Below, piece after piece: positions 32,493 through 53,462 of a stretch of DNA of 64,000 bases. The number at the start of each line of letters is the position of its first letter. Within the stretch, counting starts at the first letter, position 1. The notes under the pieces were generated by a model. The model ran no database searches, was not told the DNA's origin, and worked only from the letters and a program-made list of their open reading frames with translations. This DNA comes from Promethearchaeota archaeon (GTDB taxonomy: Archaea > Asgardarchaeota > Lokiarchaeia > Sigyniarchaeales > SOKP01). The translations under genes and the position numbers were made by a program. The stretch lies in assembly GCA_016840165.1 (NCBI GenBank), contig JAEOSU010000051.1, positions 64,001 through 128,000 of the forward strand, written 5' to 3'.

Positions 32493-33602
32493 TTGTTAAT
32501 GAATGACGAAATTGTTTATTTAGATGCAAAAACTCTCCAAAACTTCATGAGAGATGTCTTTATAGGATTGAGTTTACCAAAAGAAGATGCTGAAATCATT
32601 TCAGAAGTTTTAATTGCTTCAGATCTTAGAGGTATCGATACTCATGGAATTCAGCGTTGCAAGATGTATTATGATCGTATAAAGCAAGGTATTTATGAAG
32701 TCAAGACAAAAATTGATATTATTAAGGATGATCAAGCTACTGCCTTATGGGATGGTAATTGTGGAATGGGTCACGTAATTGCTTATAAAGCAATGAAGAC
32801 TGCAATAGAGAAAGCTAAAAAGTATGGTCTTGGGGCGGTTGCCGTTCGCAATTCAACCCATTTCGGTATTGCAGGCTATTATTCTTTAATGGCAATTAAA
32901 GAGGGGATGATTGGATTAGCGGTAACAAACGCCCGGCCATCGATCCCCCCTACTTTCGGAGTTGAACCCATGCTTGGTACTAATCCATTAACTGTTGGAG
33001 CTCCCACCGATGAGAAATTCCCGTTTTTAATAGACTGTGCTACCAGTATCATTCAAAGGGGTAAAGTAGAATTATACAGTAGAGTTGATAAACCTATGCC
33101 AGAAAATACCGTAGTGGGGGATGATGGGAACTTTCTCCGAGATCCTAATGAAATACTCGATTTAATGCTCCAACGGAAAGCAGCACTTCTACCACTAGGA
33201 GGAAAAGGAGAGGAAACTGCGGGTTATAAGGGTTATGGATATGCCACGGTTGTTGAATTATTATCTGCTGCATTACAAGAGGGCATATTTTTACGAGATA
33301 CTCTTGGAATCGAAGAGAATGGGCAAAAACGGTTAAAAGTTGGACACTTTTTCTTAGCGATAAATACGGAATTTTTTGCGGGATTGGATGCTTTTAAATT
33401 AACAGCAGGGAATATTATGAGAAGTCTTAGAAGTGCGAAGAAAGATCCAAATGCTGAAAGAATCTATACCGCAGGTGAAAAAGAATACATGGCTGAACTT
33501 GAACGAGGAACCAAAGGGATTCCTCTAAATCAAAGCCTTCAAGAGGACATAAAAGTAATGAAAGAAGAGCTTGGGTTAGATAGTTACAAATTTCCCTTCT
33601 AA
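32493..33602 (+). CDS. Ldh_2 family (type 2 malate/L-lactate dehydrogenase-like) oxidoreductase, paralog 1
   Basis: SDLRGIDTHG, RNSTHFGIAGYY, LGTNPL, DCATS, GYKGYG. Confidence 0.92.
   Translation: MLMNDEIVYLDAKTLQNFMRDVFIGLSLPKEDAEIISEVLIASDLRGIDTHGIQRCKMYYDRIKQGIYEVKTKIDIIKDDQATALWDGNCGMGHVIAYKAMKTAIEKAKKYGLGAVAVRNSTHFGIAGYYSLMAIKEGMIGLAVTNARPSIPPTFGVEPMLGTNPLTVGAPTDEKFPFLIDCATSIIQRGKVELYSRVDKPMPENTVVGDDGNFLRDPNEILDLMLQRKAALLPLGGKGEETAGYKGYGYATVVELLSAALQEGIFLRDTLGIEENGQKRLKVGHFFLAINTEFFAGLDAFKLTAGNIMRSLRSAKKDPNAERIYTAGEKEYMAELERGTKGIPLNQSLQEDIKVMKEELGLDSYKFPF
33459..33602 (+). repeat. Direct repeat copy A (last 48 codons of the Ldh_2 gene)
   Basis: Ungapped alignment to 35063-35206; 41/47 encoded residues identical. 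Confidence 0.9.
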
Positions 33603-36548: not shown

Positions 36549-37697
36549 TTGAATATGACCGAAACCGAGCCTGATGAAGAGACTAGAAAACTCCATTCAA
36601 ATGAAATCATTCATGTAAAACCTGAACTCTTAAATAACTTTATGATTGACACCTTTAAAGGATTAGGAGTTCCGAAAAAGGATGCAAAAATCTTGGCTGA
36701 TGTACTCCTCACTTCAGATCTTAGAGGAATTGATACTCATGGAACACAACGCTTAAAGATGTACTATGATCGTATACGAAATGGTATTTATAACAAAAGA
36801 ACCAAAATTGAAATAATAAAAGAAACCCCTACCACAGCGGTGATAGATGGTAATTTTGGGTTAGGTCCCGTGATTGCTTATAAATCTATGAAATTAGCTA
36901 TAAAGAAGGCAAAAACATATGGAATTGGTTCAGTTGCCACCCGAAATTCCACACATTTTGGTATTGCGGGTTATTACTCTCTTATGGCAATTAAAGAGGG
37001 GATGATCGGAATAACAACCACTAACACCCGACCGATGGTACCTCCTACATTTGGAGTTGAACCTCTACTTGGAACCAATCCTTTGGCTATGGGAGCTCCT
37101 AGCGATGAAGTTTTTCCGTTTATTATCGACTGTGCAACAAGTATAATTCAAAGGGGAAAAGTAGAAGTATATAATAGACTAAATCAGCCTGTCCCAGAGG
37201 GATTAATTATAACAAAAAGTGGTAAATCTGAAAACAATCCTGGAAATGTTTTACATGATTTAAATGCTTCTTCCGCAGCTCTACTTCCCTTAGGGGGAAA
37301 AGGAGAAAATACATCGGGACATAAAGGGTACGGATATGCCACCTTTATAGAGATCCTTTCTTCTGCTCTACAAGAAGGAGTTTTCTTAAGAGATACTGCT
37401 GGTATTTATGTAAATGGAAATAAGAAGTTGCCAGTGGGACACTTTTTCTTAGCAATGAATTTAGAAAATTTTATAGGTTTAGATTCTTTTAAGCATACTA
37501 CTGGAAGGATTCTACGCACACTAAGAAATTCAAAAAAAGAACCTGGAGCGAAAAGGATATATACGGCTGGAGAAAAAGAATATTATTTTGAAATCGAAAG
37601 GAAAGAAAAGGGTATTCCTATTAATAGCAGTCTTCAAAAAGATATAAAAGCAATTCAAGAAGATTTAGGTTTGGATAAATATAATTTTCCATTTTAA
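36549..37697 (+). CDS. Ldh_2 family oxidoreductase, paralog 2
   Basis: SDLRGIDTHG, RNSTHFGIAGYY, LGTNPL, GHKGYG; close paralog of 32493-33602. Confidence 0.92.
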   Translation: MNMTETEPDEETRKLHSNEIIHVKPELLNNFMIDTFKGLGVPKKDAKILADVLLTSDLRGIDTHGTQRLKMYYDRIRNGIYNKRTKIEIIKETPTTAVIDGNFGLGPVIAYKSMKLAIKKAKTYGIGSVATRNSTHFGIAGYYSLMAIKEGMIGITTTNTRPMVPPTFGVEPLLGTNPLAMGAPSDEVFPFIIDCATSIIQRGKVEVYNRLNQPVPEGLIITKSGKSENNPGNVLHDLNASSAALLPLGGKGENTSGHKGYGYATFIEILSSALQEGVFLRDTAGIYVNGNKKLPVGHFFLAMNLENFIGLDSFKHTTGRILRTLRNSKKEPGAKRIYTAGEKEYYFEIERKEKGIPINSSLQKDIKAIQEDLGLDKYNFPF

Positions 37698-39249: not shown

Positions 39250-40482
39250 TTATTGATCTTTAGGCACTTTAATTTCAATATCAGAAAGAGGGTAAGAACT
39301 ACAAGGATGAATATATCCATATTTTTTGTCCGCGGCTCGCCTCCAATCCGAAATCGGGTTGACGAAGACTTCACCGGAAATTAATTGCGATCGGCAAAAC
39401 CCACACTCACCTGAGCGACATTTTGAAGGAGGCGCAAACTTTGCTCTTTCCATTGCGACAATTAAAGATTCTGTAGCTAATGCGGGGATTTCTTCTGTCA
39501 ATTCCCCCATATGAACAATCATCTTAAAGGATTTTTCAGCAAGTTCTTGGGGATATCCAGGAAGTCCAACCACATCCTTAACTTCTCCAAAAGCTTCTCT
39601 TCTAATACGTCTTAATGCAAGATTAAATTGTTCTAATTCCTTCTCAACGAAATTGTACATAATCTGTGGACCACATAAGAAAATAGAACTATTATCGATA
39701 TTGCAATGCTTTCTAATAATATCAGCAGTGATAAACCCTTGTTCACAACCTTCTAATGAAACCACTTCACAGCTTAAAATGTATATTATCTTGAATTTCT
39801 CTGGATATTTTTTTTCTAACGCTTTAAGTTCGTCGTAGTAAATAATATCATCCTCATTACTACTGCCATATAATAAGGTTAATTTCGCGTCAATTGTATT
39901 CTCAATAATCGCTTTTGCGATTGAACGAAAGGGAGTAATCCCCGAGCCACCTGCTATACCTACAATTTGTTTGGAATCTCTTAAGCGATCAAAGTAGAAA
40001 AAGCCTTCAGGCCCAGAACTTTCAATCTGCGTACCAACTTCCCAATGATCCCAAATATAAGATGTTAAAAATCCAGCTTCTTCCTTTCTAATGGTCAATT
40101 CATAAAAACCCTTAAGCGCATCATTAGGAGAAGATGCAATTGAATAAGGTCTCGTTATTTCTGTTCCATTTACATTAACTTTCAAGCTTAAATATTGCCC
40201 TGGCCTGAAGTAAGCGAGCTCAGTTGTACCCAAATCTTTATTTGGTATCAATTTAAAAGTTTTTGTGCTCTTTGTCTCATTTTTTATGCTCTTAATAATT
40301 AAAAATTGTCGAATAGGATGAAGCTTAGTAGCTAATTCATTCATAGGATCTGTTGTGATAGGTTCACTAGATGCTTTTTCAAAACGTTTCTTTCTACTTG
40401 TAGATAATTTCATAAAGGCAAGTAAATCGCGTGAAGTGCTTTTAATAGTAACATCCAATCTTTTATTATCTTCTTGATTCAT
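39250..40482 (-). CDS. FNR-type FAD/NAD(P) reductase with C-terminal [2Fe-2S] ferredoxin, copy 1
   Basis: FRPGQY, RPYSIASSP, AGGSGITPF, LCGPQ, E.FG, CRSGECGFC...C; start overlaps the upstream stop codon. Confidence 0.9.
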   Translation of the reverse strand: MNQEDNKRLDVTIKSTSRDLLAFMKLSTSRKKRFEKASSEPITTDPMNELATKLHPIRQFLIIKSIKNETKSTKTFKLIPNKDLGTTELAYFRPGQYLSLKVNVNGTEITRPYSIASSPNDALKGFYELTIRKEEAGFLTSYIWDHWEVGTQIESSGPEGFFYFDRLRDSKQIVGIAGGSGITPFRSIAKAIIENTIDAKLTLLYGSSNEDDIIYYDELKALEKKYPEKFKIIYILSCEVVSLEGCEQGFITADIIRKHCNIDNSSIFLCGPQIMYNFVEKELEQFNLALRRIRREAFGEVKDVVGLPGYPQELAEKSFKMIVHMGELTEEIPALATESLIVAMERAKFAPPSKCRSGECGFCRSQLISGEVFVNPISDWRRAADKKYGYIHPCSSYPLSDIEIKVPKDQ

Positions 40483-42050
40483 TCAATAACCCCCTCTTTT
40501 ATTAGTGATTGTATAGTAAACAAGGCGGCTGTTTCCCCATCCTTTAATGAACTACTATAACCATGTCCTCGTAATCCAAAGCCTCCACAGAATTCTAATC
40601 CTTTAATATGCTTTTCATCATTCATATTTTGAAGCCGTGGTACGACTGAATCCCAGGAGTCTAATTCATAGCCATAAATTACCCCATTATATGTTCCAGT
40701 AAATCTTGAAAACGTTTCTGGTGTAGCAATTTCAATTTCTTCGATATGATCTCGTATTTGAGCACCAGTTGCGTTTTCGAAATTTTTAATTAATCCTTCA
40801 GCAAATTTCGTTTTAAGGTCAAAATATTCCTCGGGCTTAACATTATCCCAAGCTCCTGGACGAAACGCAGATGTGATCGAGATGATGCATGTTCCCGGTG
40901 GTGAACAATTAGGGATTGCTTTATTAAGGCATATTGATGCTTGAACTTTAGGTACTTCTAAATCAATAAGAGAATCATAAAGTTGATCTGTATCCATAGT
41001 ATCACATATAAAATAACTATAATCATTAAGTCCCAATTCATCTGCGGTGGTGTCTAATCCCATATATACCACTATAGTTGTAATACCATGTGTACGAGCA
41101 TTAATCTCCTTAAATGCAATTTCAGGAACTTCTGACTTTGGATGAATTAACTTATTATAAGTTAGTGTCTTGGATGCATTGCATATTAAATGATTTGTAT
41201 TAATCACTTCCCCATTTTGAGTTTCAATTCCCCATACTTGTCCATCTTTTACTAAAATCTTTTCTACTTTCGTATTATATTCAATTTTACCACCATATTC
41301 TCTAATTTTTGCTTCAATTGCAGAGGTATATTCATGAGATCGCATTTTTGGAATATAACCTCCTTTTAAAACATATCCATACACCATCGATGCAAAAACA
41401 GTAGTATTTGCTCTACTTGTGGGAACTCCTAAATACAACCAGTATGCATTTAATAACGCTCTTGCTTTTTTAGGAATATTAAGTGCATCTTGGACGTCAT
41501 CAATAGGATATGCAGCAGTCCTTAAAAAATTCGTATGTTCCCGTAATAGTACGTCCTGGTCAGGGTTGCCTCTCATTCTACCTACATAATTTGTAGCCTC
41601 ATCAATTTCTTTTCCTAATTGGAAAAAATTTTTTATTGATTGTTTGGATCCTGGGACTTGTCTCTCAATAGCCTCAATAAAATCCTCAATACCGAAAGGT
41701 AATACAGCATCAATTTTCTCTTCTGGATTAGTCACTATCAAGCGATAAGCCTCAGGTACGGGTACAAATTCTGTATCTATTTGTAATTTATCTTGAAGAA
41801 GTCTCCGAATCCCTCCATTCTGTTCTGGCGTCCCATAATCATATAATTCGTGCAAAGATGTCTCAAATTCGAATCTTCCTCTCACATAACTCGATGCGAA
41901 GCCACCAGGTAGATTATGTTGTTCAAGTAGAAGAACTTTTGCTCCCTTCATCGCAACACGAGCCGCTGCAACCAAACCCCCATTTCCTGCCCCGATTACG
42001 ATGACATCATAAGTTCTATTATCTTTTCCTTTATTATTTTGTTCATTCAT
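40479..42050 (-). CDS. CrtI/CrtISO/RetSat-like FAD-dependent oxidoreductase, copy 1
   Basis: VIGAGNGG, EQHNLPGG, RGRFEFE, EIEIATPETFSRFTG..NG.IYG, GLEFCGG. Confidence 0.87.
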   Translation of the reverse strand: MNEQNNKGKDNRTYDVIVIGAGNGGLVAAARVAMKGAKVLLLEQHNLPGGFASSYVRGRFEFETSLHELYDYGTPEQNGGIRRLLQDKLQIDTEFVPVPEAYRLIVTNPEEKIDAVLPFGIEDFIEAIERQVPGSKQSIKNFFQLGKEIDEATNYVGRMRGNPDQDVLLREHTNFLRTAAYPIDDVQDALNIPKKARALLNAYWLYLGVPTSRANTTVFASMVYGYVLKGGYIPKMRSHEYTSAIEAKIREYGGKIEYNTKVEKILVKDGQVWGIETQNGEVINTNHLICNASKTLTYNKLIHPKSEVPEIAFKEINARTHGITTIVVYMGLDTTADELGLNDYSYFICDTMDTDQLYDSLIDLEVPKVQASICLNKAIPNCSPPGTCIISITSAFRPGAWDNVKPEEYFDLKTKFAEGLIKNFENATGAQIRDHIEEIEIATPETFSRFTGTYNGVIYGYELDSWDSVVPRLQNMNDEKHIKGLEFCGGFGLRGHGYSSSLKDGETAALFTIQSLIKEGVIE

Positions 42051-42234: not shown

Positions 42235-45201
42235 TTGAAAACATTAACTGTTGATGAAAAGATTGAGGACTTTAAAAGTCAACTAAATTTGCTGGCTATG
42301 ATATTTGATACCCGCAGAAAAATGCGTAGAGAGATCCAAAATGAGAAAACGGGTTTTACTTTTAATGCAAAATATCAATTTAAAACGAAAGATGATAAAG
42401 TTAATCTTTATGTTATTTTTAAAGATGGTAAAATGACAGTTTATGATGGTAAAATTGATGATCCAAACATTACCATCTATTACAAAGATAAAGAAACCTT
42501 GGCAAACCTTTATGATAAGAGTGCTGATGAATCTCTTGATTATCTCTTAACAAATGAAATGGGTTATGATGGTAATATGTCCTATCTTACCAAGTTCTCT
42601 TATCTTACTTCACTTGTCATGGGTGCCAAAATTAAAGATTATAAAGGACCAGAAAATCGATTAATGTACCCCATTGAAGACATTGATAAAGGAGAGAAGA
42701 GTAGGAAGATTAAAAATGAAAGTCTGAATTATAAAGTCGATAATGTTAAGGCATTGGATGATCCTTATTTAGCAAAATACACTTTAGATGACTTTCCTCG
42801 CTTAAAATATTTAAAAAATAGACGATTTGCCTTAAAACCAGCAATTTGCGTCGAAAGGGCAAAGTTAGTAACTGAATATCATCAGGAGAATGGATTTGAA
42901 ACAGATAAATCTGGAAAACCTTTTGATCCAGAACTAAGACAGGCGGGAGCAGTAAATTATATTATGACTCATAAAGAACCAATTATTCATGATCATCATT
43001 TAATTGCAGGATCTACAACTTCAAAAGAAGTGGGTATCCCTATGTATCCCGAATTAATTGCAACTGCAATCTGGCCTGAACTAAAAACAATCTGTGATCG
43101 CGAACTTAATCCTAACGATATTTCTGATAAAGATGCAGATATTTTAAGCTTAGAAGTGTTCCCCTATTGGATGGAGCGAAATGTCAGAGAGCATTGTAGA
43201 AATAAATTCAACAATCCTAAATCACAAAAGTTGGAGGAAGGATGGGTTTTCTATTTTATGATGAAGACCAACGCAATAAGCCATACGGTTCCCGGTTTTC
43301 CAATGGTTCTCAACGAGGGATTATTGAGTGTTAAACAAAAAGCCGCTAATTTGGAGCAGAAAGCTACATCCTCTGAAGAGAAGAATTTTTATAATGCTAT
43401 ACAGATAACCATTGATGGAGTTATTACGTATTCAAATCATTTAAGTGACCATGCTTTAAAGCTTGCTGAAACATTAGACCCTAATGATCCAAAACAAGAG
43501 GTACGCATAGAAGAATTAAAACAAATCTCTAAGATCTGTAAAAAGGTACCAGCCCATCCTGCTGAGACGTTACATGAAGCTATTCAATCAATATGGACAA
43601 GCTTTGTTTGCTTACATTGTGAAAATGCGAATTCTGCACTGTCCATAGGGCGATTAGATCAAATGTTACAGCCATTTTTCCTTAAAGAGATACAAAAAGC
43701 TTCAAATGACAGGGAAAGAGAAGATGTAGTGAAAAAGGCAATCGAACTTGTAGGATCACTATTTGTTAGAATAAATGATCATGATCCATTAATGCCAAAC
43801 GTAGGATGGAAGCTATTTGGCGGTAGTTCTTCGGATGATACTGTAACCGTCGGTGGAGTCGATAAAAACGGTGATAATGCGGTAAATGATATGACTTACA
43901 TTATTTTAAAAACAAATGAGATGTTAGGATTCCAAGATCCCAATATGAATGCCCGATACCATTCAGGGATTAATTCAAAAGAATATCTGCGTCGCTTATG
44001 CGAAGTAAACGTTAATATGGGTGCCTCACCTAGCATCCATAACGATAAAACAATGATCGAAGCATTAATCCATGAGGGATTTTCACTTGAGGATGCTCGA
44101 GGTTGGGCTGCTACAGGTTGTGTAGAGCCTACGATTGTAGGCAAACATTACGGTCACACAAATTGTATGTTATTAAATTTAGTTGCCCCACTCGAAATGG
44201 CATTAAACAATGGTGCTATTCCCTTAACAGGGGATTTAATAGGTCCAGCGACAGGAGACACAAGATCTGCGTTTTCTACCTTTCAAGATTTCTACGATGC
44301 TTACAAAACTCAACTAAAATATTTAGCTGAACAATCCATAGAGATTAATAACTACCTTGGAGAATCACATAAATATGTACATCCTACTCCTTTATTATCA
44401 GCATTTTATGAGGGACCTTTAGAAAAGGGAAAAGATCTAATTCACGGCGGCGCCATTTATAACACTTCTGGGGTTGCTCTTGTAGCCTTAACAGATGTTG
44501 TTGATAGCTTGTTAGTGATCAAGGATCTAGTCTATGAAAAGAAAGAATTTGATTTTGCAACCTTAATGGATGCTATCGAACATAATTTTGAAAATGAATA
44601 TGAATCTATTTTGAAAAAAATAGAAAATGTACCAAAATTCGGCAGCGGTGAGGATGGTACCATTGAACTCGCTCAAGATTTGATTGATTACTGCTATGAA
44701 ATATATAATTCTGCTAAAAATTATAGAGGTGGGAAATATTTAGTGGGTTATTGGTCTATTAGCTATCATACTGGTTTTGGAATGCTTACTGGGGCATTGC
44801 CTTCTGGAAGGAAAAAAGGAAAAGCCTTAACTCCTGGCTTAACACCTGCCCCAGGAACTACTGATATCTTACTTCCGAGTATTCGAAGTGTTGGTAGTTT
44901 AAATCATTTAAAGATGGCCAACAATGCTTCTTATAATGTAAAATTAGTCCCCCATCCTGGTGATTCACATAAAGAAACTCTTGACCTATTTAATAGTTAT
45001 GTTCAAAGCTTTTTCGATCTAGGAGGCATGCAGTGGCAATTTAATGTAATTAAAACAGAAACTCTTAGAAATGCAATGGAGCATCCGATGGATTATCGTT
45101 GGTTACTAGTAAGAGTGTCGGGCTATAATGCTTACTTTACGAAACTCAATAAAAATATGCAATTAGAAATAATTGAACGACATGAGTATCAATCAAAATA
45201 A
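42235..45201 (+). CDS. Glycyl radical enzyme (PFL superfamily, eliminase-like) with N-terminal SCP2-like domain
   Basis: Gly loop LLVRVSGYNAYF; Cys loop ATGCVEP; SIGRLDQ; N-terminal ~130 aa (YQFKT..VIFKDGKMTVYDG..DDPNITI....GNMSYLTKF) resembles SCP2. Confidence 0.9.
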   Translation: MKTLTVDEKIEDFKSQLNLLAMIFDTRRKMRREIQNEKTGFTFNAKYQFKTKDDKVNLYVIFKDGKMTVYDGKIDDPNITIYYKDKETLANLYDKSADESLDYLLTNEMGYDGNMSYLTKFSYLTSLVMGAKIKDYKGPENRLMYPIEDIDKGEKSRKIKNESLNYKVDNVKALDDPYLAKYTLDDFPRLKYLKNRRFALKPAICVERAKLVTEYHQENGFETDKSGKPFDPELRQAGAVNYIMTHKEPIIHDHHLIAGSTTSKEVGIPMYPELIATAIWPELKTICDRELNPNDISDKDADILSLEVFPYWMERNVREHCRNKFNNPKSQKLEEGWVFYFMMKTNAISHTVPGFPMVLNEGLLSVKQKAANLEQKATSSEEKNFYNAIQITIDGVITYSNHLSDHALKLAETLDPNDPKQEVRIEELKQISKICKKVPAHPAETLHEAIQSIWTSFVCLHCENANSALSIGRLDQMLQPFFLKEIQKASNDREREDVVKKAIELVGSLFVRINDHDPLMPNVGWKLFGGSSSDDTVTVGGVDKNGDNAVNDMTYIILKTNEMLGFQDPNMNARYHSGINSKEYLRRLCEVNVNMGASPSIHNDKTMIEALIHEGFSLEDARGWAATGCVEPTIVGKHYGHTNCMLLNLVAPLEMALNNGAIPLTGDLIGPATGDTRSAFSTFQDFYDAYKTQLKYLAEQSIEINNYLGESHKYVHPTPLLSAFYEGPLEKGKDLIHGGAIYNTSGVALVALTDVVDSLLVIKDLVYEKKEFDFATLMDAIEHNFENEYESILKKIENVPKFGSGEDGTIELAQDLIDYCYEIYNSAKNYRGGKYLVGYWSISYHTGFGMLTGALPSGRKKGKALTPGLTPAPGTTDILLPSIRSVGSLNHLKMANNASYNVKLVPHPGDSHKETLDLFNSYVQSFFDLGGMQWQFNVIKTETLRNAMEHPMDYRWLLVRVSGYNAYFTKLNKNMQLEIIERHEYQSK

Positions 45202-46262: not shown

Positions 46263-48050
46263 ATGGGAAAAATCTTAAGAATTGATTTAGGATCTAAGAA
46301 CTTTACCACAGAAGATGTAGATCCTGAATTAGAAGAAAAATATATTGGTGGAGCGGGAGTTGCAGCTGCAATCTTCATCAAGGAAGTTCCTCCAAATATA
46401 GATCCATATGATCCTCAAAACCTCCTTATCTTTTCTGTTGGTCCAATTTGTGGAACTGCAATCCCCTACTGTGGTAGACATTTTGTTATGGCAAAATCTC
46501 CCTTAACTAGAATTCTAGGTGAATCTTCTGCTGGTGGATTTTTTGGAAATGAATTAAGAAGAACGGGGTATGATCATATTATCATTAGCGGAGTGAGTGA
46601 GAGCCCTGTCTACTTATGGATTTATGACGATAATGTTGAAATTCGAGACGCTACAAAGCTATGGGGTAAAGGAACTAGAGAGACAGAGGATCTTCTATGC
46701 GCAGAAATTGATGATGATAAAGCAAAGATTGCATCAATTGGTCCTGCTGGAGAAAATCTTGTGAAATTTTCCTCAATTATGAATGAGAAAGGTCATGCTG
46801 CAGGACGTTGCGGGATGGGTGCTGTAATGGGCAGTAAAAATTTAAAAGCAATAGTTGTGCGTGGTACTAAAGATGTACCCATCGATAATAGAGATAAATT
46901 AATGGATTCAGCCCGAAAAATAAGAACAATTGGAAAAATTTTCCCCCTTGCTGTAGCAACGCAAGAATTAGGTACCCCTGGACATATGGATAATTATGTA
47001 AGTGCAGGAGATGTACCGATCAAGAATTTTACTCTAAGTAGATGGAAAGGAACAAAAAATATTGGATATTATGCACTAAAAGACAACTATGAAATAAAAC
47101 ATTATTCATGTTTTAATTGTGGGACTGCTTGTAGAGGAAATATAAATTTCAATAATGATTGGGTTGAGTGGCCAGAATATGAATTCTTAGCAATGTTGGG
47201 TTCTAACTTACTTGTGGATGATTTAGATGCCTTAGTAAGATGGAATATTATGGTTAATGATTATGGAATGGATTGCATTTCTCTTGGTGGTATTCTCGCT
47301 GTTTTTCTTGAAGCAATAGAGAGAAAGTTAATTGACATAAATTATGAGGAACTTGGTTTCGAAAAGGATCCTGAATCGGATGAATATATCATATGGAGTG
47401 CTATTTCAGCAATTGAGAATTTAATCACATTAACTGCATTTCGAAAGGAGATTGGCGATGATTTAGCTGATGGAGTACGACTCTTTTGTCAAAAATACAG
47501 TTTACCAGATGATCTTAATATTCAGGGAAAAGGTCTTGAGGTTCCTGCTCATGAACCTCGCTCAAATAATATGACTGCTTTAGATCTCGCTACATCTTCT
47601 CGTGGGGCATATCATGGTTTTGAACCTCTTCATTTATCATTTGCCGCCAATTTAAAAAAGGAAATAGGCCTTACAGAGCGAATTGATCCTTATAATACTA
47701 TTGAATCTGTAAGCGCAGTAAAGAAAATCCAAGATGCGTCTGAGGCTTATACTGCAACTGGTGGTTGCATTTTTGGGTTTTGGTATTCATCAGAGATTAC
47801 ACCATGGGTGGATGCTGTAAATGCAATTACTGGAAGATCCTACACAGTTGAAGATTGGGTCCAGATTGGAGAAAACTTATTTAATATGAAACGGAATTAT
47901 AATGAAAAATGCGGAATTACGAAAAAAGATGATTCACTTGGTTCAAGATTCTCTATACCTATTCCAAAAGGAGGAACTAAGAAAAACGTCCCTCCACTTA
48001 AAGAAATGCTTCAGAATTATTATTCTCTTAGAGGATGGAATATGGATTGA
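46263..48050 (+). CDS. aor: Aldehyde:ferredoxin oxidoreductase (tungstopterin AOR family)
   Basis: GKILRIDL, KSPLT, SIGPAGENLV, AAGRCGMGAVMGSKNLKAI, CFNCGTAC, PEYE, DCIS, YYSLRGW. Confidence 0.93.
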   Translation: MGKILRIDLGSKNFTTEDVDPELEEKYIGGAGVAAAIFIKEVPPNIDPYDPQNLLIFSVGPICGTAIPYCGRHFVMAKSPLTRILGESSAGGFFGNELRRTGYDHIIISGVSESPVYLWIYDDNVEIRDATKLWGKGTRETEDLLCAEIDDDKAKIASIGPAGENLVKFSSIMNEKGHAAGRCGMGAVMGSKNLKAIVVRGTKDVPIDNRDKLMDSARKIRTIGKIFPLAVATQELGTPGHMDNYVSAGDVPIKNFTLSRWKGTKNIGYYALKDNYEIKHYSCFNCGTACRGNINFNNDWVEWPEYEFLAMLGSNLLVDDLDALVRWNIMVNDYGMDCISLGGILAVFLEAIERKLIDINYEELGFEKDPESDEYIIWSAISAIENLITLTAFRKEIGDDLADGVRLFCQKYSLPDDLNIQGKGLEVPAHEPRSNNMTALDLATSSRGAYHGFEPLHLSFAANLKKEIGLTERIDPYNTIESVSAVKKIQDASEAYTATGGCIFGFWYSSEITPWVDAVNAITGRSYTVEDWVQIGENLFNMKRNYNEKCGITKKDDSLGSRFSIPIPKGGTKKNVPPLKEMLQNYYSLRGWNMD

Positions 48051-48083: not shown

Positions 48084-49313
48084 TTAGCTTCTTGGTATTT
48101 CCATCTCAAGATTGCTTAATGGATATGAGGAACAAGGGTGAAAGTATTTCAATATTTTATCGGCTGTTCTCCTCCCATCATTTTTTGGATTTACAAATAT
48201 CTCACCAGAAATTAATTCCGAACGGCAAAAACCACATTGGCCGGATCGACATACCGAGGGAGGAGCCAATTTGGCTCGTTCCATTGCTACTAATACACTT
48301 TCATGTGCGTTAGCGGGGATATCTTTTGATAAATTTCCTATCCTTACTTTGATTTTAAATGATTTTTCTGCCATTTTCTTTGGATAATTAGGTAAAGAAA
48401 CTATATCCTTCACTTCTCCATACACTTCTTTTCGAATACGATTCGTTGGTAAGTTAAATTTACTCAATTCCTTATCAATAAAATCATACATTACTTGAGG
48501 GCCACAAATAAAGACGGAACTATTACTAAAGTCACAATATTTTTCAATTATACCTGCGGTAATAAATCCCTGTTCACAACCGTCTAAGCTAACCTCCTCA
48601 CAACTTAAAACATGGACAATTTTAATTTTCTCAGGATCTCTACTTTCATATTCCTTAAATTCATCATAAAATAGAATATCATCCTCTTCACTACTACCAT
48701 AAAGTAGAGTTAAACTGATATTTAATTTACCCTCCATAATCTCTTTTGCCATTGATCTAAATGGGGTTATCCCCGAACCGCCCGCTATTCCGATGACTTC
48801 TTTTAAGTCTCGAATGGGATCATAATAAAAATAACCATTAGGTCCAGAACTCTTTATTTTAGTATTTTTCTCCCAATTCTCCCATACATATTCTGTAAGG
48901 AATCCGTGGTCTTCTTTTCGAATCGTAATCTCATAAAAACCTCTTAACGCATCTGAAGGAGATGAAGATATAGAGTATGGACGTGTGATTGGAGTTCCAT
49001 CTACATCAACTTTTAAACTGAGGAACTGCCCCGCTCTGAAATAAGCAACTTTATCCGTACTTGAATCTGGATCGGGAATAAGCCTGTAGGTTTTAGCAGA
49101 TTTAGTTTCTTCTTTTATTTCACTAATCATTAAATTTTGAATTGAAGGATGTAGAAGTTGAGCTAGATTATTTACAGGATCAGATTTTATAAACTCCTCA
49201 GATGCTTTGTCAATATTTTTTCTACGTTGTGAAGTCAAATTTTTAAATGCTAATAAATCTCGAATATTTCCCTTTACTGATACCTTCAATTTCTGCTTTT
49301 GATCTTCTTTCAC
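48084..49313 (-). CDS. FNR-type reductase with C-terminal [2Fe-2S], copy 2
   Basis: FRAGQF, RPYSISSSP, AGGSGITPF, ICGPQ, CRSGQCGFC; paralog of 39250-40482. Confidence 0.9.
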   Translation of the reverse strand: MKEDQKQKLKVSVKGNIRDLLAFKNLTSQRRKNIDKASEEFIKSDPVNNLAQLLHPSIQNLMISEIKEETKSAKTYRLIPDPDSSTDKVAYFRAGQFLSLKVDVDGTPITRPYSISSSPSDALRGFYEITIRKEDHGFLTEYVWENWEKNTKIKSSGPNGYFYYDPIRDLKEVIGIAGGSGITPFRSMAKEIMEGKLNISLTLLYGSSEEDDILFYDEFKEYESRDPEKIKIVHVLSCEEVSLDGCEQGFITAGIIEKYCDFSNSSVFICGPQVMYDFIDKELSKFNLPTNRIRKEVYGEVKDIVSLPNYPKKMAEKSFKIKVRIGNLSKDIPANAHESVLVAMERAKLAPPSVCRSGQCGFCRSELISGEIFVNPKNDGRRTADKILKYFHPCSSYPLSNLEMEIPRS

Positions 49314-50881
49314 TCAGAATCACCTGTTTCATTTAATTCTTGTAAAGTTAAAAAGGCGGCTATTTGACCAGAGAGTAAAGCATTTGTATAACTCTGGCAA
49401 TTTGCAGAAAAGCCTCCACAAAATTCTAGACCTTTAATATATTTTTCATTGTTCATTTCCATTAATCTGGGCATAAAAGAATCCCAAGGGTCTGTTTCAT
49501 ATCCGTATGCCGAACCTCCGAATGTTCCCGTATATCTTGCTAATGTTTGGGGCGTAGCAATTTCAATCTCTTCAATGTGTTCTCTTATAGAGGTTTTCGT
49601 TGCAAATTCAAAGGTATTTATTAAATGTCGAGCGATTTTATTTTTCAAATTAAAATAATCTTCAGAGCTTACATCCTTCCATGCTTCGGGAAGAAAAAAA
49701 GCTGTAATTGTAAGAATACATGTACCTGGTGGAGAGCAATCAGGGTTTACTTTATTTAAGCATATTGTTGCCTGAGCTTTAGGAGGATTTAATGTTTTAA
49801 AGGATTCATAAATTTCTTCAGTATTAGTTGTATCATAAATATGGTAACTATAATTTTCAATTCCTAATTCTTCAGCACTCGCATTCAAACCCAAATATAC
49901 AACAAAACAACTGATTGCATGTCGTCGGGCATTCATGGTTTTTAAAGCTTGTTTCGGTACCTCATTTTTAGGAAATATTAAATTATTATAAACTAATGTA
50001 GGGGATGCATTTGAAATCACGTGGTTTGTCTTAATTTTATCTCCTTGATTAGTTTCTACGCCTATAACTTGCCTATCTTTAACAATTACTTTATTTACTT
50101 TCGTGTTATAAAGGATTTTACCCCCTTTTTCTCTAATCAAGGATTCTAGGGCCGCAGTATATCCGTGGGAGCGATATTTTGGGACATATGCTTTTCGGAT
50201 TAAAAAATAATAATGCATAGCAGCATAAAAAGTAAAGTTAGCCCTGCTCGTTGGAATGCCAATATAGCACCAATAGGCATCTAAAATGTTTTGAGCCTTT
50301 TTAGGAATCTTTAATGCGTCATTTACCTCATCTAAAGTATATGGTGCCGTTTTTAAAAAGTTCTTATAATTTGCAATAAGTATATCTTTTTCTGGATTTC
50401 CTTCCGATTCAGTAATATAGCTAATTGCATTGGTAATTTCTTCTGAAAGTAATATATAATTTCGAATAGATTCCTCACTTCCAGGAACTTCTCTTTCCAT
50501 CATAGTTATATATTCTTCTCTTCCAAATGGAACAAGAACGTCTAATTTTTCATTTGGGTCATTAATAATTAATCGAAATGCTTCAGGAATCTCTACGAAC
50601 TCGATATTTAATCCCAAATCTTCCTCAAAAAGCTTCCTTATGGCTCCTTTATTTGATTTAGGGCCATAATCGCACAACTCATGCAATGTGCCCTCAAACT
50701 CAAATCGTCCTCGAACAAAACTAGTTGCAAATCCTCCAAGTAAATTATGTTGTTCGCAGAGCACAACTTTAGCACCTTCGATTGCCAATTGGGCTGCAGC
50801 AATCAATCCTCCATTTCCTCCCCCTATTACAACCGCATCAAAATCCTCCTTTAAAATCTGATCACTGATTTCTTCCACCAT
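49310..50881 (-). CDS. CrtI/CrtISO/RetSat-like FAD-dependent oxidoreductase, copy 2
   Basis: VIGGGNGG, EQHNLLGG, RGRFEFE, EIEIATPQT; ATG at 50881 preferred over GTG at 50890 (GGGGTG SD-like upstream; promoter spacing matches copy 1). Confidence 0.85.
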   Translation of the reverse strand: MVEEISDQILKEDFDAVVIGGGNGGLIAAAQLAIEGAKVVLCEQHNLLGGFATSFVRGRFEFEGTLHELCDYGPKSNKGAIRKLFEEDLGLNIEFVEIPEAFRLIINDPNEKLDVLVPFGREEYITMMEREVPGSEESIRNYILLSEEITNAISYITESEGNPEKDILIANYKNFLKTAPYTLDEVNDALKIPKKAQNILDAYWCYIGIPTSRANFTFYAAMHYYFLIRKAYVPKYRSHGYTAALESLIREKGGKILYNTKVNKVIVKDRQVIGVETNQGDKIKTNHVISNASPTLVYNNLIFPKNEVPKQALKTMNARRHAISCFVVYLGLNASAEELGIENYSYHIYDTTNTEEIYESFKTLNPPKAQATICLNKVNPDCSPPGTCILTITAFFLPEAWKDVSSEDYFNLKNKIARHLINTFEFATKTSIREHIEEIEIATPQTLARYTGTFGGSAYGYETDPWDSFMPRLMEMNNEKYIKGLEFCGGFSANCQSYTNALLSGQIAAFLTLQELNETGDSE

Positions 50882-50916
50882 ATAAGACACCCCAAACTAT
50901 CCAATAATTTAAAATA

Positions 50917-51884: not shown

Positions 51885-53462
51885 TTAGTTTAAATATGCC
51901 AACATTGATAAAATGAATAATTCTTCGGTAATATCTTCCGAAGATTTACGCTTGAGCTCTTCCTTTAGGTGATTATAGATCATTAAATGTGGATTAAAAA
52001 ACGCAAAACCTTGATTGATATCTTCTTCTAATACTTCTCGAAAATGAGGATTTAGCCATATTTCAAATGGCCCTGAACTATGCTCGGCTTTATATTGAAT
52101 TTGAAACTCTTTTTTTAGTATGAAAATAACCTCATAGACTGTTTTACAAATCTGGAGTAATTTTTCAGAATTTTCCCTATAGAAATAATGAATTGGGACA
52201 GGTAGACGCATATGAAGAAGTAATCCCTTTCCCTTGCGAAAATTAATGTGACCATATCCGAAAATAACTTTATGAAAACCACTTTTCGTGAAAATAGAAT
52301 TGATAGTATTTATGATATCGGGTAAAAATTTAGGTTGGCTTAAGATGTCTTCAAATCCTGGAAATGCAATATGATTAGTATCATCTTCAGAAGTTTGAAC
52401 TAATATGGCAAATGAAGACCTTTCTTGCATATATTTTTGGTATTCTTCCTCGGTCAGTTTAGTCCAATAACATGCACATTCACCTATCATGGTTTTAATA
52501 AAATTACTAACAATATTCCTCCTTCCTTTAATTAAAACGGCCCAATTTACTTTAAAATCCTCGGATTGCTTCTTAGCTGGGGCTAATTTACCAAACTCTC
52601 CTGGTAATTTTATCGGTGAAGTTACAAATTCACTCACGAGGGGGAGTATCCTAGCATCTAATACTTTTTGTAATCCATTAAATGCTGAAGTTAAATCCTC
52701 ACCAAATAATATTGCCTCTTCTAAGTTTACATCTGGCTGATATAATCTGAAGTTTGCACTTAATACGATTCCATAAAAACCATTACCACCTACAATCTTT
52801 TCAAATAACGAATCATTTCTATCAATTGCGATAATCTCACCATTTGGGAGCATAACTCTCATATCAATAATCCATTCAATTGCTGCTCCTAATTTACCTG
52901 ATGTTATGCCACTAGCATTTGATGCAATTAATCCTCCAACGCGAACTGGTAATTTGAAAGAACTTGCTGGTTGAACTGGAAAAATATATCTTCCTTTTGA
53001 TTCGAAGTTCACCACCTTTATCAAATCGGATACTAAGGTGCTCTGTTCTGCATAAACCTTCTTTTGTGATAGATCAAGTATAATTTGCTCGGAATCGGAA
53101 TGCATAGCCTCAAGATCAACTAAAGCACCGAAATTTGCGAAACCTCCTGATAGACCCGTTTTTCCAGACGCAAAAGTTATCGGTATTTTAAAGCTTTGTG
53201 ATTGAATTACAAAATCTCGTAGTTGATCTTCATTTCTTGGACGAAAAATTATATAAGGTTTTAAACTCAAAAGTGATGGGTCTCTGATTGTACCTGAGCT
53301 AATATCATTATCGACTATAATTATTTTCCCAGAATTTAACAAATTTTTTTCGGTAGTAGTGAGGGATTTAGCAAATTGAAATCCTTTTTTTACCATAACA
53401 TCTATAAACGCCTGCCAAGGTAATTTTTTTTGTAACTCTTCGGAGATACTCAGCATCAACAT
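51885..53462 (-). CDS. FAD-binding oxidoreductase (VAO/GlcD/D-lactate dehydrogenase superfamily)
   Basis: SGKTGLSGG, PVQPAS, VGGLIASNASG, VMLPNGE, G.NG.YGIV, C-terminal AEH. Confidence 0.8.
   Translation of the reverse strand: MLMLSISEELQKKLPWQAFIDVMVKKGFQFAKSLTTTEKNLLNSGKIIIVDNDISSGTIRDPSLLSLKPYIIFRPRNEDQLRDFVIQSQSFKIPITFASGKTGLSGGFANFGALVDLEAMHSDSEQIILDLSQKKVYAEQSTLVSDLIKVVNFESKGRYIFPVQPASSFKLPVRVGGLIASNASGITSGKLGAAIEWIIDMRVMLPNGEIIAIDRNDSLFEKIVGGNGFYGIVLSANFRLYQPDVNLEEAILFGEDLTSAFNGLQKVLDARILPLVSEFVTSPIKLPGEFGKLAPAKKQSEDFKVNWAVLIKGRRNIVSNFIKTMIGECACYWTKLTEEEYQKYMQERSSFAILVQTSEDDTNHIAFPGFEDILSQPKFLPDIINTINSIFTKSGFHKVIFGYGHINFRKGKGLLLHMRLPVPIHYFYRENSEKLLQICKTVYEVIFILKKEFQIQYKAEHSSGPFEIWLNPHFREVLEEDINQGFAFFNPHLMIYNHLKEELKRKSSEDITEELFILSMLAYLN

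What the first reader, a model, noticed from the sequence alone, without database searches (positions are those of the whole stretch)
42235..45201. GRE architecture: lipid-carrier-like N-domain on an eliminase-type active site
Seen: 988 aa, longer than the usual ~800 aa GRE. The extra N-terminal ~130 aa have an SCP2-like pattern ending GNMSYLTKF. The Cys loop is GCVEP (single Cys, Glu at +2) and the Gly loop is RVSGY. Established: Cys-x-Glu is typical of GRE dehydratases/eliminases, whereas PFL has Cys-Cys and fumarate-adding enzymes have CMSP-type loops. Inference: a membrane- or lipid-directed radical eliminase, likely to be mis-annotated as PFL or alkylsuccinate synthase.
Basis: partly seen in the sequence, partly recalled or inferred. 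Interest (0 to 1): 0.75.

Follow-up and report, generated by a model that had tools for sequence, protein, structure and literature searches.

The report
Glycyl radical enzyme with SCP2-like domain
An Asgard archaeon encodes an oxygen-sensitive radical enzyme of the dehydratase/lyase type fused to a lipid-carrier-like domain; the family is uncharacterised and probably turns a greasy, hydroxyl-bearing compound into an aldehyde, not hydrocarbons into succinates as similar archaeal genes have been labelled.

Summary
Window 42235-45201(+) is a 988-aa glycyl radical enzyme (GRE) with GCVEP (Cys629, Glu631), RVSGY (Gly963) and a 188-residue N-terminal extension. Residues ~17-125 of that extension are homologous to SCP2: Pfam 21.0 bits against a cut-off of 21.3, and profile-profile probability 92.3% against at most 0.4% in 21 controls.

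The family is conserved in Asgard archaea, Desulfobacterota, Chloroflexota and Bacillota. Its sister clade keeps the SCP2-like module as a separate gene between the GRE and its activase (29 of 33 loci). The pairing therefore looks functional rather than accidental.

The Cys-x-Glu motif plus His350 place it with the GRE 1,2-eliminases/isomerases. It fails the tests for alkyl/benzylsuccinate synthase and for PFL, although sources name its relatives PFL-type. An activase and an aldehyde:ferredoxin oxidoreductase follow it.

Most likely it eliminates a group next to a hydroxyl on a hydrophobic or amphipathic substrate, giving an aldehyde. The substrate is unknown, and no membrane anchor was found.

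I judge it a new variant of a known kind. This scan has noted the same fusion before on other DNA (102 notes hold the words, in at least 72 genomes).

The parts
42235..45201 (+). Gene for the 988-aa glycyl radical enzyme with an N-terminal SCP2-like domain (TTG start)
   Evidence: RBS-like GGTGA lies upstream.
42283..42609 (+). SCP2-like domain, residues ~17-125, ending ...GNMSYLTKFSYLT; it contains no cysteine
   Evidence: Pfam SCP2 E 4e-4. hhalign 92.3% against own-genome SCP2 proteins, with controls at most 0.4%. Four SCP2 structures are the best non-GRE PDB hits of the family profile, E 0.074-0.14.
42610..42798 (+). Conserved charged linker, residues 126-188 (37.5% K/R/D/E)
   Evidence: Conserved across 25 family members. 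Composition, coordinates.
42799..45201 (+). GRE catalytic core (10-stranded barrel plus glycyl radical domain), residues 189-988
   Evidence: PFL-like 190-849 and Gly_radical 866-969. PDB matches begin at residue 186-201.
43282..43284 (+). His350, aligned with His166 of propanediol dehydratase and His160 of HypD
   Evidence: Counted in the alignments. Present in 69 of 69 family members and 27 of 27 split-form relatives.
43819..43839 (+). GGSSSDD (529-535) after Phe528, in the cap-helix region that contacts substrate in other eliminases
   Evidence: Alignment to 5i2a and 6vxc. HypD residues taken from PMC7077986. D534 and D535 are the same in all 50 group A+B sequences.
44116..44130 (+). Cys loop GCVEP (Cys629, Glu631)
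45112..45180 (+). Gly loop and glycyl radical fingerprint RVSGYNAYFTKLNKNMQLEIIER (Gly963)
   Evidence: The fingerprint is as given in PMC13450708.
45242..46138 (+). GRE activating enzyme (radical SAM): CX3CX2C at residue 30, two ferredoxin-type CX2CX2CX3C motifs at 56 and 84
   Evidence: TIGR02494 297.7 bits, above the cut-off of 174.35. Motifs. It sits immediately downstream in 50 of 68 related loci that have at least 1.2 kb downstream.
46263..48050 (+). Aldehyde:ferredoxin oxidoreductase (AOR family), the proposed consumer of the GRE product
   Evidence: AFOR_N E 1.1e-81 and AFOR_C E 2.1e-79. Found within 7 kb in 15 of 41 related loci with at least 5 kb on both sides.
39250..42050 (-). Divergent pair: CrtI/carotenoid-isomerase-like flavoprotein (40479-42050) and PaaE-like FAD/NAD/[2Fe-2S] reductase (39250-40482). 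Context only, specific to the Asgard clade
   Evidence: CrtI-like in 8 and PaaE-like in 7 of 18 group-A loci with full flanks; in 0 of 23 group B and C loci.
48084..50890 (-). Second CrtI-like (49310-50890) plus PaaE-like (48084-49313) pair. Context only

Best explanation
This is a glycyl radical enzyme of the Cys-x-Glu (1,2-eliminase) type that carries a built-in SCP2-type carrier module. Proposed mechanism: the adjacent radical-SAM activase puts a radical on Gly963, and the radical passes to Cys629. The thiyl radical abstracts a hydrogen from the carbinol carbon of a hydroxylated substrate. Glu631 takes the hydroxyl proton, and the neighbouring leaving group (OH, OR or an amine) departs with help from His350. 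The product radical then takes the hydrogen back, giving an aldehyde (or ketone). The SCP2-like domain, tethered by a conserved 63-residue linker, holds the hydrophobic part of the substrate or hands it to the barrel. The AOR encoded two genes downstream oxidises the aldehyde to an acid that can enter beta-oxidation. Shown here: the motifs, the SCP2 homology, the clade-wide pairing of GRE and SCP2 module, and the gene neighbourhoods. Inferred: the chemistry, the lipid-like nature of the substrate, and the aldehyde product.
For: 1. GRE identity and cofactor machinery are established. 2. CXE and His350 are present in all 69 family members examined. The review says CXE marks eliminases and isomerases, and that GD His164 protonates the leaving OH. 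3. The best PDB matches are PFL2 of A. fulgidus, HypD, HpyG, propanediol dehydratase and CutC at 345-382 bits. MasD scores 221 and BSS 179. 4. SCP2 homology is supported. 5. All 80 best genome loci, spanning Asgard archaea, Desulfobacterota, Chloroflexota and Bacillota, keep the N-domain. 6. The closest free-standing relatives of the N-domain are encoded directly after a GRE core gene in 29 of 33 loci, and before an activase in 42 of 51. Fused and split GRE cores together form one clade (SH-like 0.966), apart from 13 other GRE paralogues. 7. An AOR lies within 7 kb of the gene (directly after the GRE or its activase in several) in Asgard, Desulfobacterales, 'Bacteriovoracaceae' and Acididesulfobacillus loci. 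8. Enoyl-CoA hydratase, acyl-CoA dehydrogenase and an AMP-ligase are neighbours in bacterial loci.
Against: No structure could be predicted, so neither the SCP2 fold nor any tunnel has been seen. The Pfam score is borderline. AOR is near in only 15 of 41 loci with full flanks (1 of 12 in group C) and in none of the 80 split-form loci. In Desulfatibacillum alkenivorans the gene stands alone among unrelated genes, with no activase within 7 kb. The pocket-aligned residues are fairly polar (N346, S467, SSSDD, T642, N643). This fits a polar head group but not a purely hydrophobic substrate. CXE is shared with isomerases. Close relatives share synteny by descent, so locus counts overstate the number of independent observations. 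No expression data were obtained.
Confidence: 0.5

Rival explanations
1. Same eliminase chemistry on a small polar substrate (for example glycerol or a short diol). In this reading the SCP2-like module is a structural or regulatory accessory: a cluster-free analogue of GRE small subunits that gates the channel, aids activation or mediates assembly, rather than a lipid carrier.
For: In the split form the module is a ~150-aa gene between GRE and activase, which is where small subunits sit in other GRE operons. The review describes small subunits that gate substrate channels. The pocket-aligned residues are polar. The closest solved relative, PFL2, was first proposed to be a glycerol dehydratase.
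Against: The domain has no Cys and so cannot hold an Fe-S cluster like the known small subunits. By recall, SCP2 domains fused to enzymes usually present hydrophobic substrates. Beta-oxidation-type and esterase/lipase-type neighbours occur in bacterial loci. The pocket differs from propanediol dehydratase at several aligned positions, and from glycerol dehydratase as far as I recall its residues.
Confidence: 0.2
2. A GRE isomerase rather than an eliminase. CXE-dependent ketyl radical chemistry would rearrange a hydroxylated hydrophobic substrate without net loss of a group.
For: The review states that the GRE isomerases HplG, YbiW and PflD keep CXE with the Glu bonded to substrate. They are among the PDB matches at 256-326 bits.
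Against: Eliminases score higher (345-382 bits). His350 matches the dehydratase histidine. An adjacent AOR suggests an aldehyde product.
Confidence: 0.1
3. An alkyl- or benzylsuccinate synthase (X-succinate synthase) that adds hydrocarbons to fumarate, as proposed for Asgard GREs in ISME J 2021 (PMC8163825).
For: The protein has a single Cys and is 28% identical to a genuine AssA, the same level the paper used (29-33%; passages read). The family occurs in the alkane degrader Desulfatibacillum. An SCP2 module would also suit a hydrocarbon substrate.
Against: The Cys loop is GCVEP, whereas two genuine AssA proteins of D. alkenivorans have ACMSPC, and they lack the His350 equivalent. Those AssA score 1485 and 1478 bits to MasD, against 221 for this protein. 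There is no room for beta/gamma subunit genes: the gaps are 184, 40, 124 and 33 nt. D. alkenivorans carries its AssA genes separately. The paper did not consider small subunits (0 occurrences of the terms).
Confidence: 0.03
4. A pyruvate formate-lyase (formate C-acetyltransferase), as most database names say.
For: Names given by sources.
Against: PFL and TdcE have two adjacent Cys on the loop (review); this protein has Gly-Cys. TIGR01255 scores 107.5 bits against a cut-off of 994.2, and NF007437 394.1 against 1109.
Confidence: 0.01

Closest known systems
PFL2 / PflD of Archaeoglobus fulgidus (PDB 2f3o), an archaeal GRE of debated function
   Same: It is the best solved match (381.8 bits, E 6.6e-113). 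It has a single Cys, CVE on the Cys loop, and His at the His350 position.
   Different: It is 776 aa and the match starts at query residue 201, so it has no SCP2-like domain. Aligned pocket positions differ: Q/A for S467/A468, N/Q for D534/D535, S/D for T642/N643. Its function is itself unknown; it has been proposed to be either a glycerol dehydratase or MASS.
GRE C-O 1,2-eliminases: glycerol dehydratase (1r8w), propanediol dehydratase (5i2a), HypD (6vxc)
   Same: Shared features are CXE, the catalytic His, Phe528 at the position of PD Phe338, and Ile842 at the position of a PD valine.
   Different: They are ~790-845 aa with no N-terminal module. The HypD substrate residues Asp278, Ser334, Tyr450 and Thr645 are Ser467, Gly530 (or Phe528 in the PD register), Leu646 and Ile842 here. 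All act on small polar substrates.
Choline TMA-lyase CutC
   Same: It has CXE, and Thr at Cys+13 (T642). Some CutC proteins also have a long N-terminal extension (9f3w is 1150 aa).
   Different: The residue aligned with His350 is Asp in CutC. That this is the choline-binding Asp216 is recalled, not taken from a call.
X-succinate synthases (MasD/AssA, BSS alpha)
   Same: They share the GRE fold and a single Cys, act on hydrophobic substrates, and have accessory subunits that gate a hydrophobic channel.
   Different: They have a CMSP-type loop, no Glu and no His equivalent. They use Fe-S beta/gamma subunits instead of an SCP2 module. Scores to this protein are far lower.
SCP2-domain fusion enzymes (SCPx thiolase, multifunctional enzyme 2, alkyl sulfatases, UbiT/UbiJ-type carriers); this list is recalled, not from a call
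   Same: A small SCP2 module attached to, or partnered with, an enzyme that handles hydrophobic substrates.
   Different: None is a radical enzyme. I found no paper that joins SCP2 and GREs.
Split-form relatives: GRE core + ~150-aa SCP2-like gene + activase (metagenome loci L109-L188)
   Same: They are the sister clade of the fused family (SH-like 0.966). Cores are 38-44% identical. H350, N466, CVE, H845 and G963 are kept.
   Different: The module is a separate gene downstream of the GRE. Pocket-aligned residues are smaller or more hydrophobic (A342, G346, M467, AG at 531-532, V534, P535, S642, S643). No AOR lies within 6 kb.

Membership tests
Glycyl radical enzyme superfamily (PFL-like) | PFL-like barrel plus C-terminal glycyl radical domain with fingerprint RVxG[FWY]x6-8[FL]x4Qx2[IV]x2R | tested here: met
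   PF02901 E 7e-160 and PF01228 E 4.7e-23. The regex matches at 960-982.
Glycyl radical enzyme superfamily (PFL-like) | Cognate radical-SAM activase with CX3CX2C | tested here: met
   The adjacent gene scores 297.7 bits to TIGR02494, above the cut-off of 174.35. CPLSCAWC is at residue 30.
GRE 1,2-eliminases / CXE-type GREs | Cys-x-Glu on the Cys loop | tested here: met
   GCVEP at 628-632, in 69 of 69 relatives. The review notes that isomerases share the motif.
GRE 1,2-eliminases / CXE-type GREs | General-acid His on beta-strand 1 (GD His164, PD His166, HypD His160) | tested here: met
   His350 aligns with position 166 of 5i2a and with His160 of HypD (chain index 180, offset 20). Equivalence to GD His164 is by analogy and was not aligned here.
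GRE 1,2-eliminases / CXE-type GREs | Catalysed elimination giving an aldehyde or ketone | not testable with these tools
   This needs an anaerobic enzyme assay.
NCBIfam TIGR01774 (PFL2/glycerol dehydratase subfamily) and the named equivalogs (HypD, CutC, HpsG, HpfG) | Score above the curated cut-off | tested here: not met
   TIGR01774 551.1 against 678.2; HypD 433.6 against 1100; CutC 422 against 1050; HpsG 378.4 and HpfG 362.9 against 1000.
HypD | Substrate residues Asp278, Ser334, Tyr450, Thr645 | tested here: not met
   The aligned residues are Ser467, Gly530 (or Phe528 in the PD register), Leu646 and Ile842.
C-S lyases (IslA, IseG, HpsG) | Two Arg and one Gln that anchor the sulfonate | not tested
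   The residues are named in the review, but no alignment to these chains was printed. Scores are low: 225-252 bits.
X-succinate synthases (AssA/MasD, BssA) | XSS-type Cys loop (CMSP) without Glu | tested here: not met
   The window has TGCVEP. Two genuine AssA of D. alkenivorans have QACMSPC.
X-succinate synthases (AssA/MasD, BssA) | Fe-S small subunits (beta, gamma) encoded alongside | tested here: not met
   The intergenic gaps of 184, 40, 124 and 33 nt leave no room. The neighbours are an activase and an AOR.
X-succinate synthases (AssA/MasD, BssA) | Close similarity to characterised XSS | tested here: not met
   221 bits to MasD and 179 to TutD, against 1485 and 1478 for genuine AssA. Identity to AssA is 28%.
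Pyruvate formate-lyase | Two adjacent Cys on the Cys loop; score above the equivalog cut-off | tested here: not met
   The loop has Gly-Cys. TIGR01255 scores 107.5 against 994.2.
SCP2 (PF02036) | Sequence homology to the family | tested here: met
   21.0 bits as a protein (cut-off 21.3); 21.1 alone and 21.5 with its neighbours in the six-frame search, marked over the cut-off. hhalign 92.3% with controls at most 0.4%. 15 of 121 scanned (the window's domain plus 120 relatives) hit SCP2 at E<=0.001. The single-sequence score is borderline.
SCP2 (PF02036) | Alpha/beta SCP2 fold with a hydrophobic cavity; lipid binding | not testable with these tools
Binding needs an experiment.

The most novel reading that the evidence does not exclude
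This would be the first glycyl radical enzyme that works on membrane-type lipids. It would cut the C-O (or C-N) bond next to the free hydroxyl in the polar head of an alkyl or isoprenoid lipid, for example a long-chain or isoprenoid 1,2-diol, an alkylglycerol or archaeol-type ether, or a sphingoid amino alcohol. The SCP2 module would then be a new, cluster-free class of GRE accessory subunit that feeds the lipid in. That would give Asgard archaea and sulfate reducers an oxygen-free entry into lipid catabolism in sediments. It would also replace the claim that these archaea activate hydrocarbons by fumarate addition.
Probability: 0.3. Interest if true: 0.85.

Novelty: new variant of a known kind. 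Interest (0 to 1): 0.62.

Why it matters
A 2026 review states that every PFL-like GRE of known function is bacterial and that archaeal GREs remain unassigned. It never mentions sterol, ether or Asgard, and mentions lipid only in reference titles. All characterised Cys-x-Glu GREs act on small polar molecules. A conserved clade that always travels with an SCP2-type module, fused or as a neighbouring gene, points to hydrophobic or amphipathic substrates, a chemistry not yet described for this branch. It also bears on Asgard archaeal ecology. The published inference that Asgard GREs are alkyl/benzylsuccinate synthases rests on criteria that this protein meets equally well (one Cys, ~30% identity), yet it fails the defining features of that class. 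The family occurs in two named cultured strains, Desulfatibacillum alkenivorans DSM 16219 and Acididesulfobacillus acetoxydans INE, so the question can be tested.

Tried and rejected
No fold, tunnel or domain docking could be examined, and fold search was never used.

ESM Atlas: the window's sequence could not be read. With the stored homologue P0110, residues 1-135, the best clusters scored 0.91, and one of them carries SCP2 in 16% of its members. This is a lead only.

Ether-lipid idea via the FAD_binding_4 gene (51885-53462): its PDB matches are weak and of LctD/glycolate-oxidase type (E 4e-8 at best). No alkyl-DHAP-synthase match was listed, so this gives no support.

Membrane anchoring: no segment in residues 1-188 exceeds a Kyte-Doolittle 19-residue mean of 0.73.

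Free-standing copy of the N-domain in the own genome: none, although seven ordinary SCP2 genes exist. In D. alkenivorans there are two fused copies and one weak hit inside a 353-aa frame.

Expression: no RNA holder was listed, and read laying was not used.

Literature: 'glycyl radical'+'SCP2' gave 3 papers, 2 of them listed. 'glycyl radical'+'sterol carrier' gave 1. Judged from the listings, none is about such a fusion. PMC4957038 (propanediol dehydratase structure) is not held, so the PD and GD pocket residues beyond those named in the review are recalled. I therefore could not check whether its five 'Ass/Bss' proteins belong to this fused clade.

PFL and X-succinate synthase readings were rejected on motifs and scores.

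Tree caveats: FastTree SH-like supports only. The outgroups are paralogues from two genomes, not characterised enzymes. After re-rooting, the support printed for the whole fused clade (0.058) is a misplaced label and is not used.


Full report
**The observation**

Window 42235-45201(+) is one open frame of 988 codons starting at TTG. A GGTGA lies just upstream, and homologues begin at the aligned position. Pfam finds PFL-like (190-849, E 7e-160) and Gly_radical (866-969, E 4.7e-23).

The full GRE fingerprint given in the 2026 review PMC13450708 also matches, at 960-982.

PDB and family matches start at residue 185-201. The extension is therefore 188 residues, not ~130. It has an SCP2-like part (~17-125) followed by a conserved, charged 63-residue linker. 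The five other GREs of this genome (31-35% identical) lack the extension.

**Is the N-domain SCP2-like?**

- Alone, residues 1-140 hit PF02036 at E 4e-4, 21.0 bits, against a gathering score of 21.3. A six-frame search of the genome gives 21.1 bits, or 21.5 with its neighbours in the frame, marked over the cut-off. The same search finds seven ordinary free-standing SCP2 genes.
- A phmmer search of residues 1-188 against 1.84 billion representatives gave 170 hits at E<=0.001. I scanned the window's domain plus 120 of the listed hits. I left out 22 longer than 330 aa, 7 shorter than 100 aa, and P0057. Of those 121, 15 (the window's own domain included) hit SCP2 at E<=0.001, the best at 5e-6.
- Of 10 long hits scanned, 7 are GREs, 1 is a pentapeptide-repeat protein, and 2 have no family.
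- The family profile's best non-GRE PDB hits are four SCP2 / lipid-transfer structures, but weakly (E 0.074-0.14).
- The cleanest test was hhalign. It compared a profile of 25 GRE N-domains with a profile of the seven Pfam-positive SCP2 proteins of this genome. The result was probability 92.3%, E 5.4e-7, over 89 columns. The reversed profile and 20 column shuffles reached at most 0.4%.

I take homology to SCP2 as established.

**The family**

The word-indexed search gave 295 relatives, with the best 120 listed. Nearly all are 982-1003 aa, with 62-96% identity over the full length. Sources place them in Loki-, Hermod-, Thor-, Frey- and Promethearchaeota, and also in Desulfatibacillum and Desulfomonilia. 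Sources name them 'formate acetyltransferase', 'pyruvate formate lyase family protein' and the like.

In one-genome-per-species contigs, 314 stretches encode relatives. The best 80 all match from query residue 1-31 wherever the contig holds the start of the gene (5 are cut at the contig end), so they carry the N-domain. They come from three groups:
- Group A: Asgard archaea, >=69% identity, 39 loci.
- Group B: Desulfobacterota and others, 56-68% identity, 18 loci.
- Group C: Chloroflexota, Bacillota and a second Asgard set, <56% identity, 23 loci.

In a tree of 70 near-full-length members plus 5 others, group A is monophyletic (SH-like 1.0). It is nested inside A+B (0.992). This suggests the Asgard copy came from Desulfobacterota-like bacteria.

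**Fused and split forms**

Eight of the closest free-standing relatives of the N-domain (~150 aa) were used to fetch 80 metagenome loci.
- Of 33 loci with at least 2.6 kb upstream, 29 have a GRE core gene ending less than 600 nt upstream on the same strand. In 28 of the 29 the alignment to the window's protein starts at residue 189-198 (at 388 in the other).
- Of 51 loci with at least 1.1 kb downstream, 42 have an activase right after the small gene.
- With the N-domain cut away, 17 fused cores and 27 split-form cores are each monophyletic (1.0). Together they form a clade (0.966) that excludes 13 other GRE paralogues from two genomes, genuine AssA included.

The GRE-SCP2 partnership is therefore a trait of a whole clade, kept through a fusion or fission event. 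That is good evidence that the module works with the enzyme.

There are caveats. The loci were drawn with one peptide pattern from one subfamily and are not independent. The outgroups are not characterised enzymes.

**Chemistry**

The review (sections 5.5, 5.6, 4.3 and 7 read; 5.7 seen in passages) states three relevant points:
- All GRE 1,2-eliminases, and also the GRE isomerases, keep Cys-x-Glu, with the Glu bonded to a substrate hydroxyl.
- In glycerol dehydratase, His164 protonates the leaving hydroxyl.
- Only PFL and TdcE have two Cys on the loop.

In the printed alignments, His350 lies opposite position 166 (His) of propanediol dehydratase and opposite His160 of HypD. CutC has Asp there. 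Phe528 aligns with PD Phe338, and Ile842 with a PD valine.

The HypD substrate residues Asp278, Ser334, Tyr450 and Thr645 (from passages of PMC7077986) are not kept here.

The pocket-aligned set is M342, N346, H350, S467, A468, F528, GG (529-530), SDD (533-535), C629-V-E-P, T642, N643, S843, H845. It is identical in all 50 group A+B sequences. N466, S531, S532, L646 and I842 vary in 1-4 of them. The set is largely kept in group C.

The set matches no characterised enzyme, and it is fairly polar, with two invariant Asp. I read this as a polar reactive head on an otherwise hydrophobic substrate. These positions come from sequence alignment, not from a structure. The split-form clade has smaller or more hydrophobic residues at the same positions, so substrates probably differ between the two clades.

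**Not a succinate synthase, not PFL**

D. alkenivorans DSM 16219 has ten GRE paralogues:
- an orthologue of this gene (62% identity);
- a second fused one (44% identity);
- two genuine AssA, scoring 1485 and 1478 bits to MasD.

Those AssA have QACMSPC on the Cys loop and no His at the 350 position. The window's protein is 28% identical to one of them. It scores 221 bits to MasD and 179 to BSS, against 345-382 to PFL2, HypD, HpyG, PD and CutC.

The gaps around the gene (184, 40, 124 and 33 nt) leave no room for Fe-S small subunits.

The ISME J paper on Hermodarchaeota (passages read) based its Ass/Bss call on one conserved Cys and 29-33% identity to AssA1. This protein meets both criteria, as would any single-Cys GRE of that identity level. 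I could not check whether the paper's proteins belong to this clade, because its supplements were not available. Members of the clade from Hermodarchaeota bins do exist.

All curated NCBIfam cut-offs for GRE equivalogs and for TIGR01774 are missed.

**Neighbourhood**

Downstream lie an activase (TIGR02494, 297.7 bits; CX3CX2C plus two ferredoxin motifs) and an AOR-family gene.

Across the 41 related loci with at least 5 kb on both sides:
- an activase is within 7 kb in 31;
- an AOR is within 7 kb in 15 (A 11/18, B 3/11, C 1/12);
- an enoyl-CoA hydratase is within 7 kb in 7.

The GRE/AOR neighbourhood recurs in Asgard, Desulfobacterales, 'Bacteriovoracaceae' and Acididesulfobacillus loci.

Bacterial loci also show acyl-CoA dehydrogenase, AMP-ligase, TetR and SDR genes. 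In group C there are carboxylesterase and alpha/beta-hydrolase genes.

Results against the reading:
- AOR is absent from most loci, and from all 80 split-form loci.
- In D. alkenivorans the gene sits among unrelated genes without an activase.

The two CrtI-like/PaaE-like pairs that bracket the window's operon recur only in Asgard loci. CrtI-like is in 8 and PaaE-like in 7 of 18 group-A loci, and in 0 of 23 others. They may therefore be lineage synteny rather than part of a shared pathway. The CrtI-like protein is only distantly related to carotene desaturases (53.5 bits to 4rep).

**Verdict**

The most likely reading (about 0.5) is a Cys-x-Glu radical eliminase. Its SCP2-type module would present a hydrophobic or amphipathic hydroxylated substrate, and its aldehyde product would go to the AOR.

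The rivals are:
- a structural or regulatory role for the module with a small polar substrate (0.2);
- an isomerase (0.1);
- a succinate synthase (0.03);
- PFL (0.01).

I found no paper on an SCP2-GRE pairing. The 2026 review does not mention one in the sections and term searches I ran. It is a new variant of a known kind.

This scan has flagged the same fusion on other genomes before. That neither adds to nor subtracts from the evidence given here.

Noticed in passing
window 39250-42050 and 48084-50890: Two diverged copies of a CrtI/carotenoid-isomerase-like flavoprotein followed by a PaaE-like FAD/NAD/[2Fe-2S] reductase bracket the GRE operon on the minus strand. In each pair the two coordinate ranges overlap by 4 nt. 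In related loci the pairing is seen only in the Asgard group.
   Followed up: partly
G000 (own genome), loci L082-L086: The genome holds five further GRE paralogues without the N-domain (31-35% identical). In two of them (L084, L085) the Gly loop reads VKVGGY instead of RVxGY.
   Followed up: partly
G000:C54:315740-317666 (loci L088, L090, L092): Three free-standing SCP2 genes (144-149 aa) lie within 2 kb of each other. The genome has seven such genes in all.
   Followed up: no
P0214 (985 aa, representative library): A distant fused relative has GGAMQP where the family has TGCVEP. It therefore lacks both the catalytic Cys and the Glu, while keeping ISGY on the Gly loop.
   Followed up: no
G001 (D. 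alkenivorans DSM 16219), loci L096-L105: This genome has ten GRE paralogues: two SCP2-fused, two genuine AssA, and a tandem pair (L101, L102) with GCVY on the Cys loop, that is Tyr in place of the Glu.
   Followed up: partly
window 54452-56941 (-): An 829-aa ORF with no Pfam match at E<=1e-4 lies next to a xylose-isomerase-like TIM barrel, an FAD_binding_4 protein and a DUF1848 gene. DUF1848 recurs near the GRE in 11 of the 80 related loci by tblastn and in 7 by clustering.
   Followed up: no
window 32493-33602 and 36549-37697: There are two Ldh_2 (malate/L-lactate/sulfolactate dehydrogenase family) genes, both on the plus strand. A WD40 beta-propeller gene and a 4Fe-4S protein gene lie between them.
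   Followed up: no
loci L027/L071, L053/L073, L029/L077, L047/L078: Several Asgard bins carry two fused SCP2-GRE genes, one of group A and one of group C. The group C copy has a partly different pocket: A or M at 467, G at 468, M at 842.
   Followed up: partly
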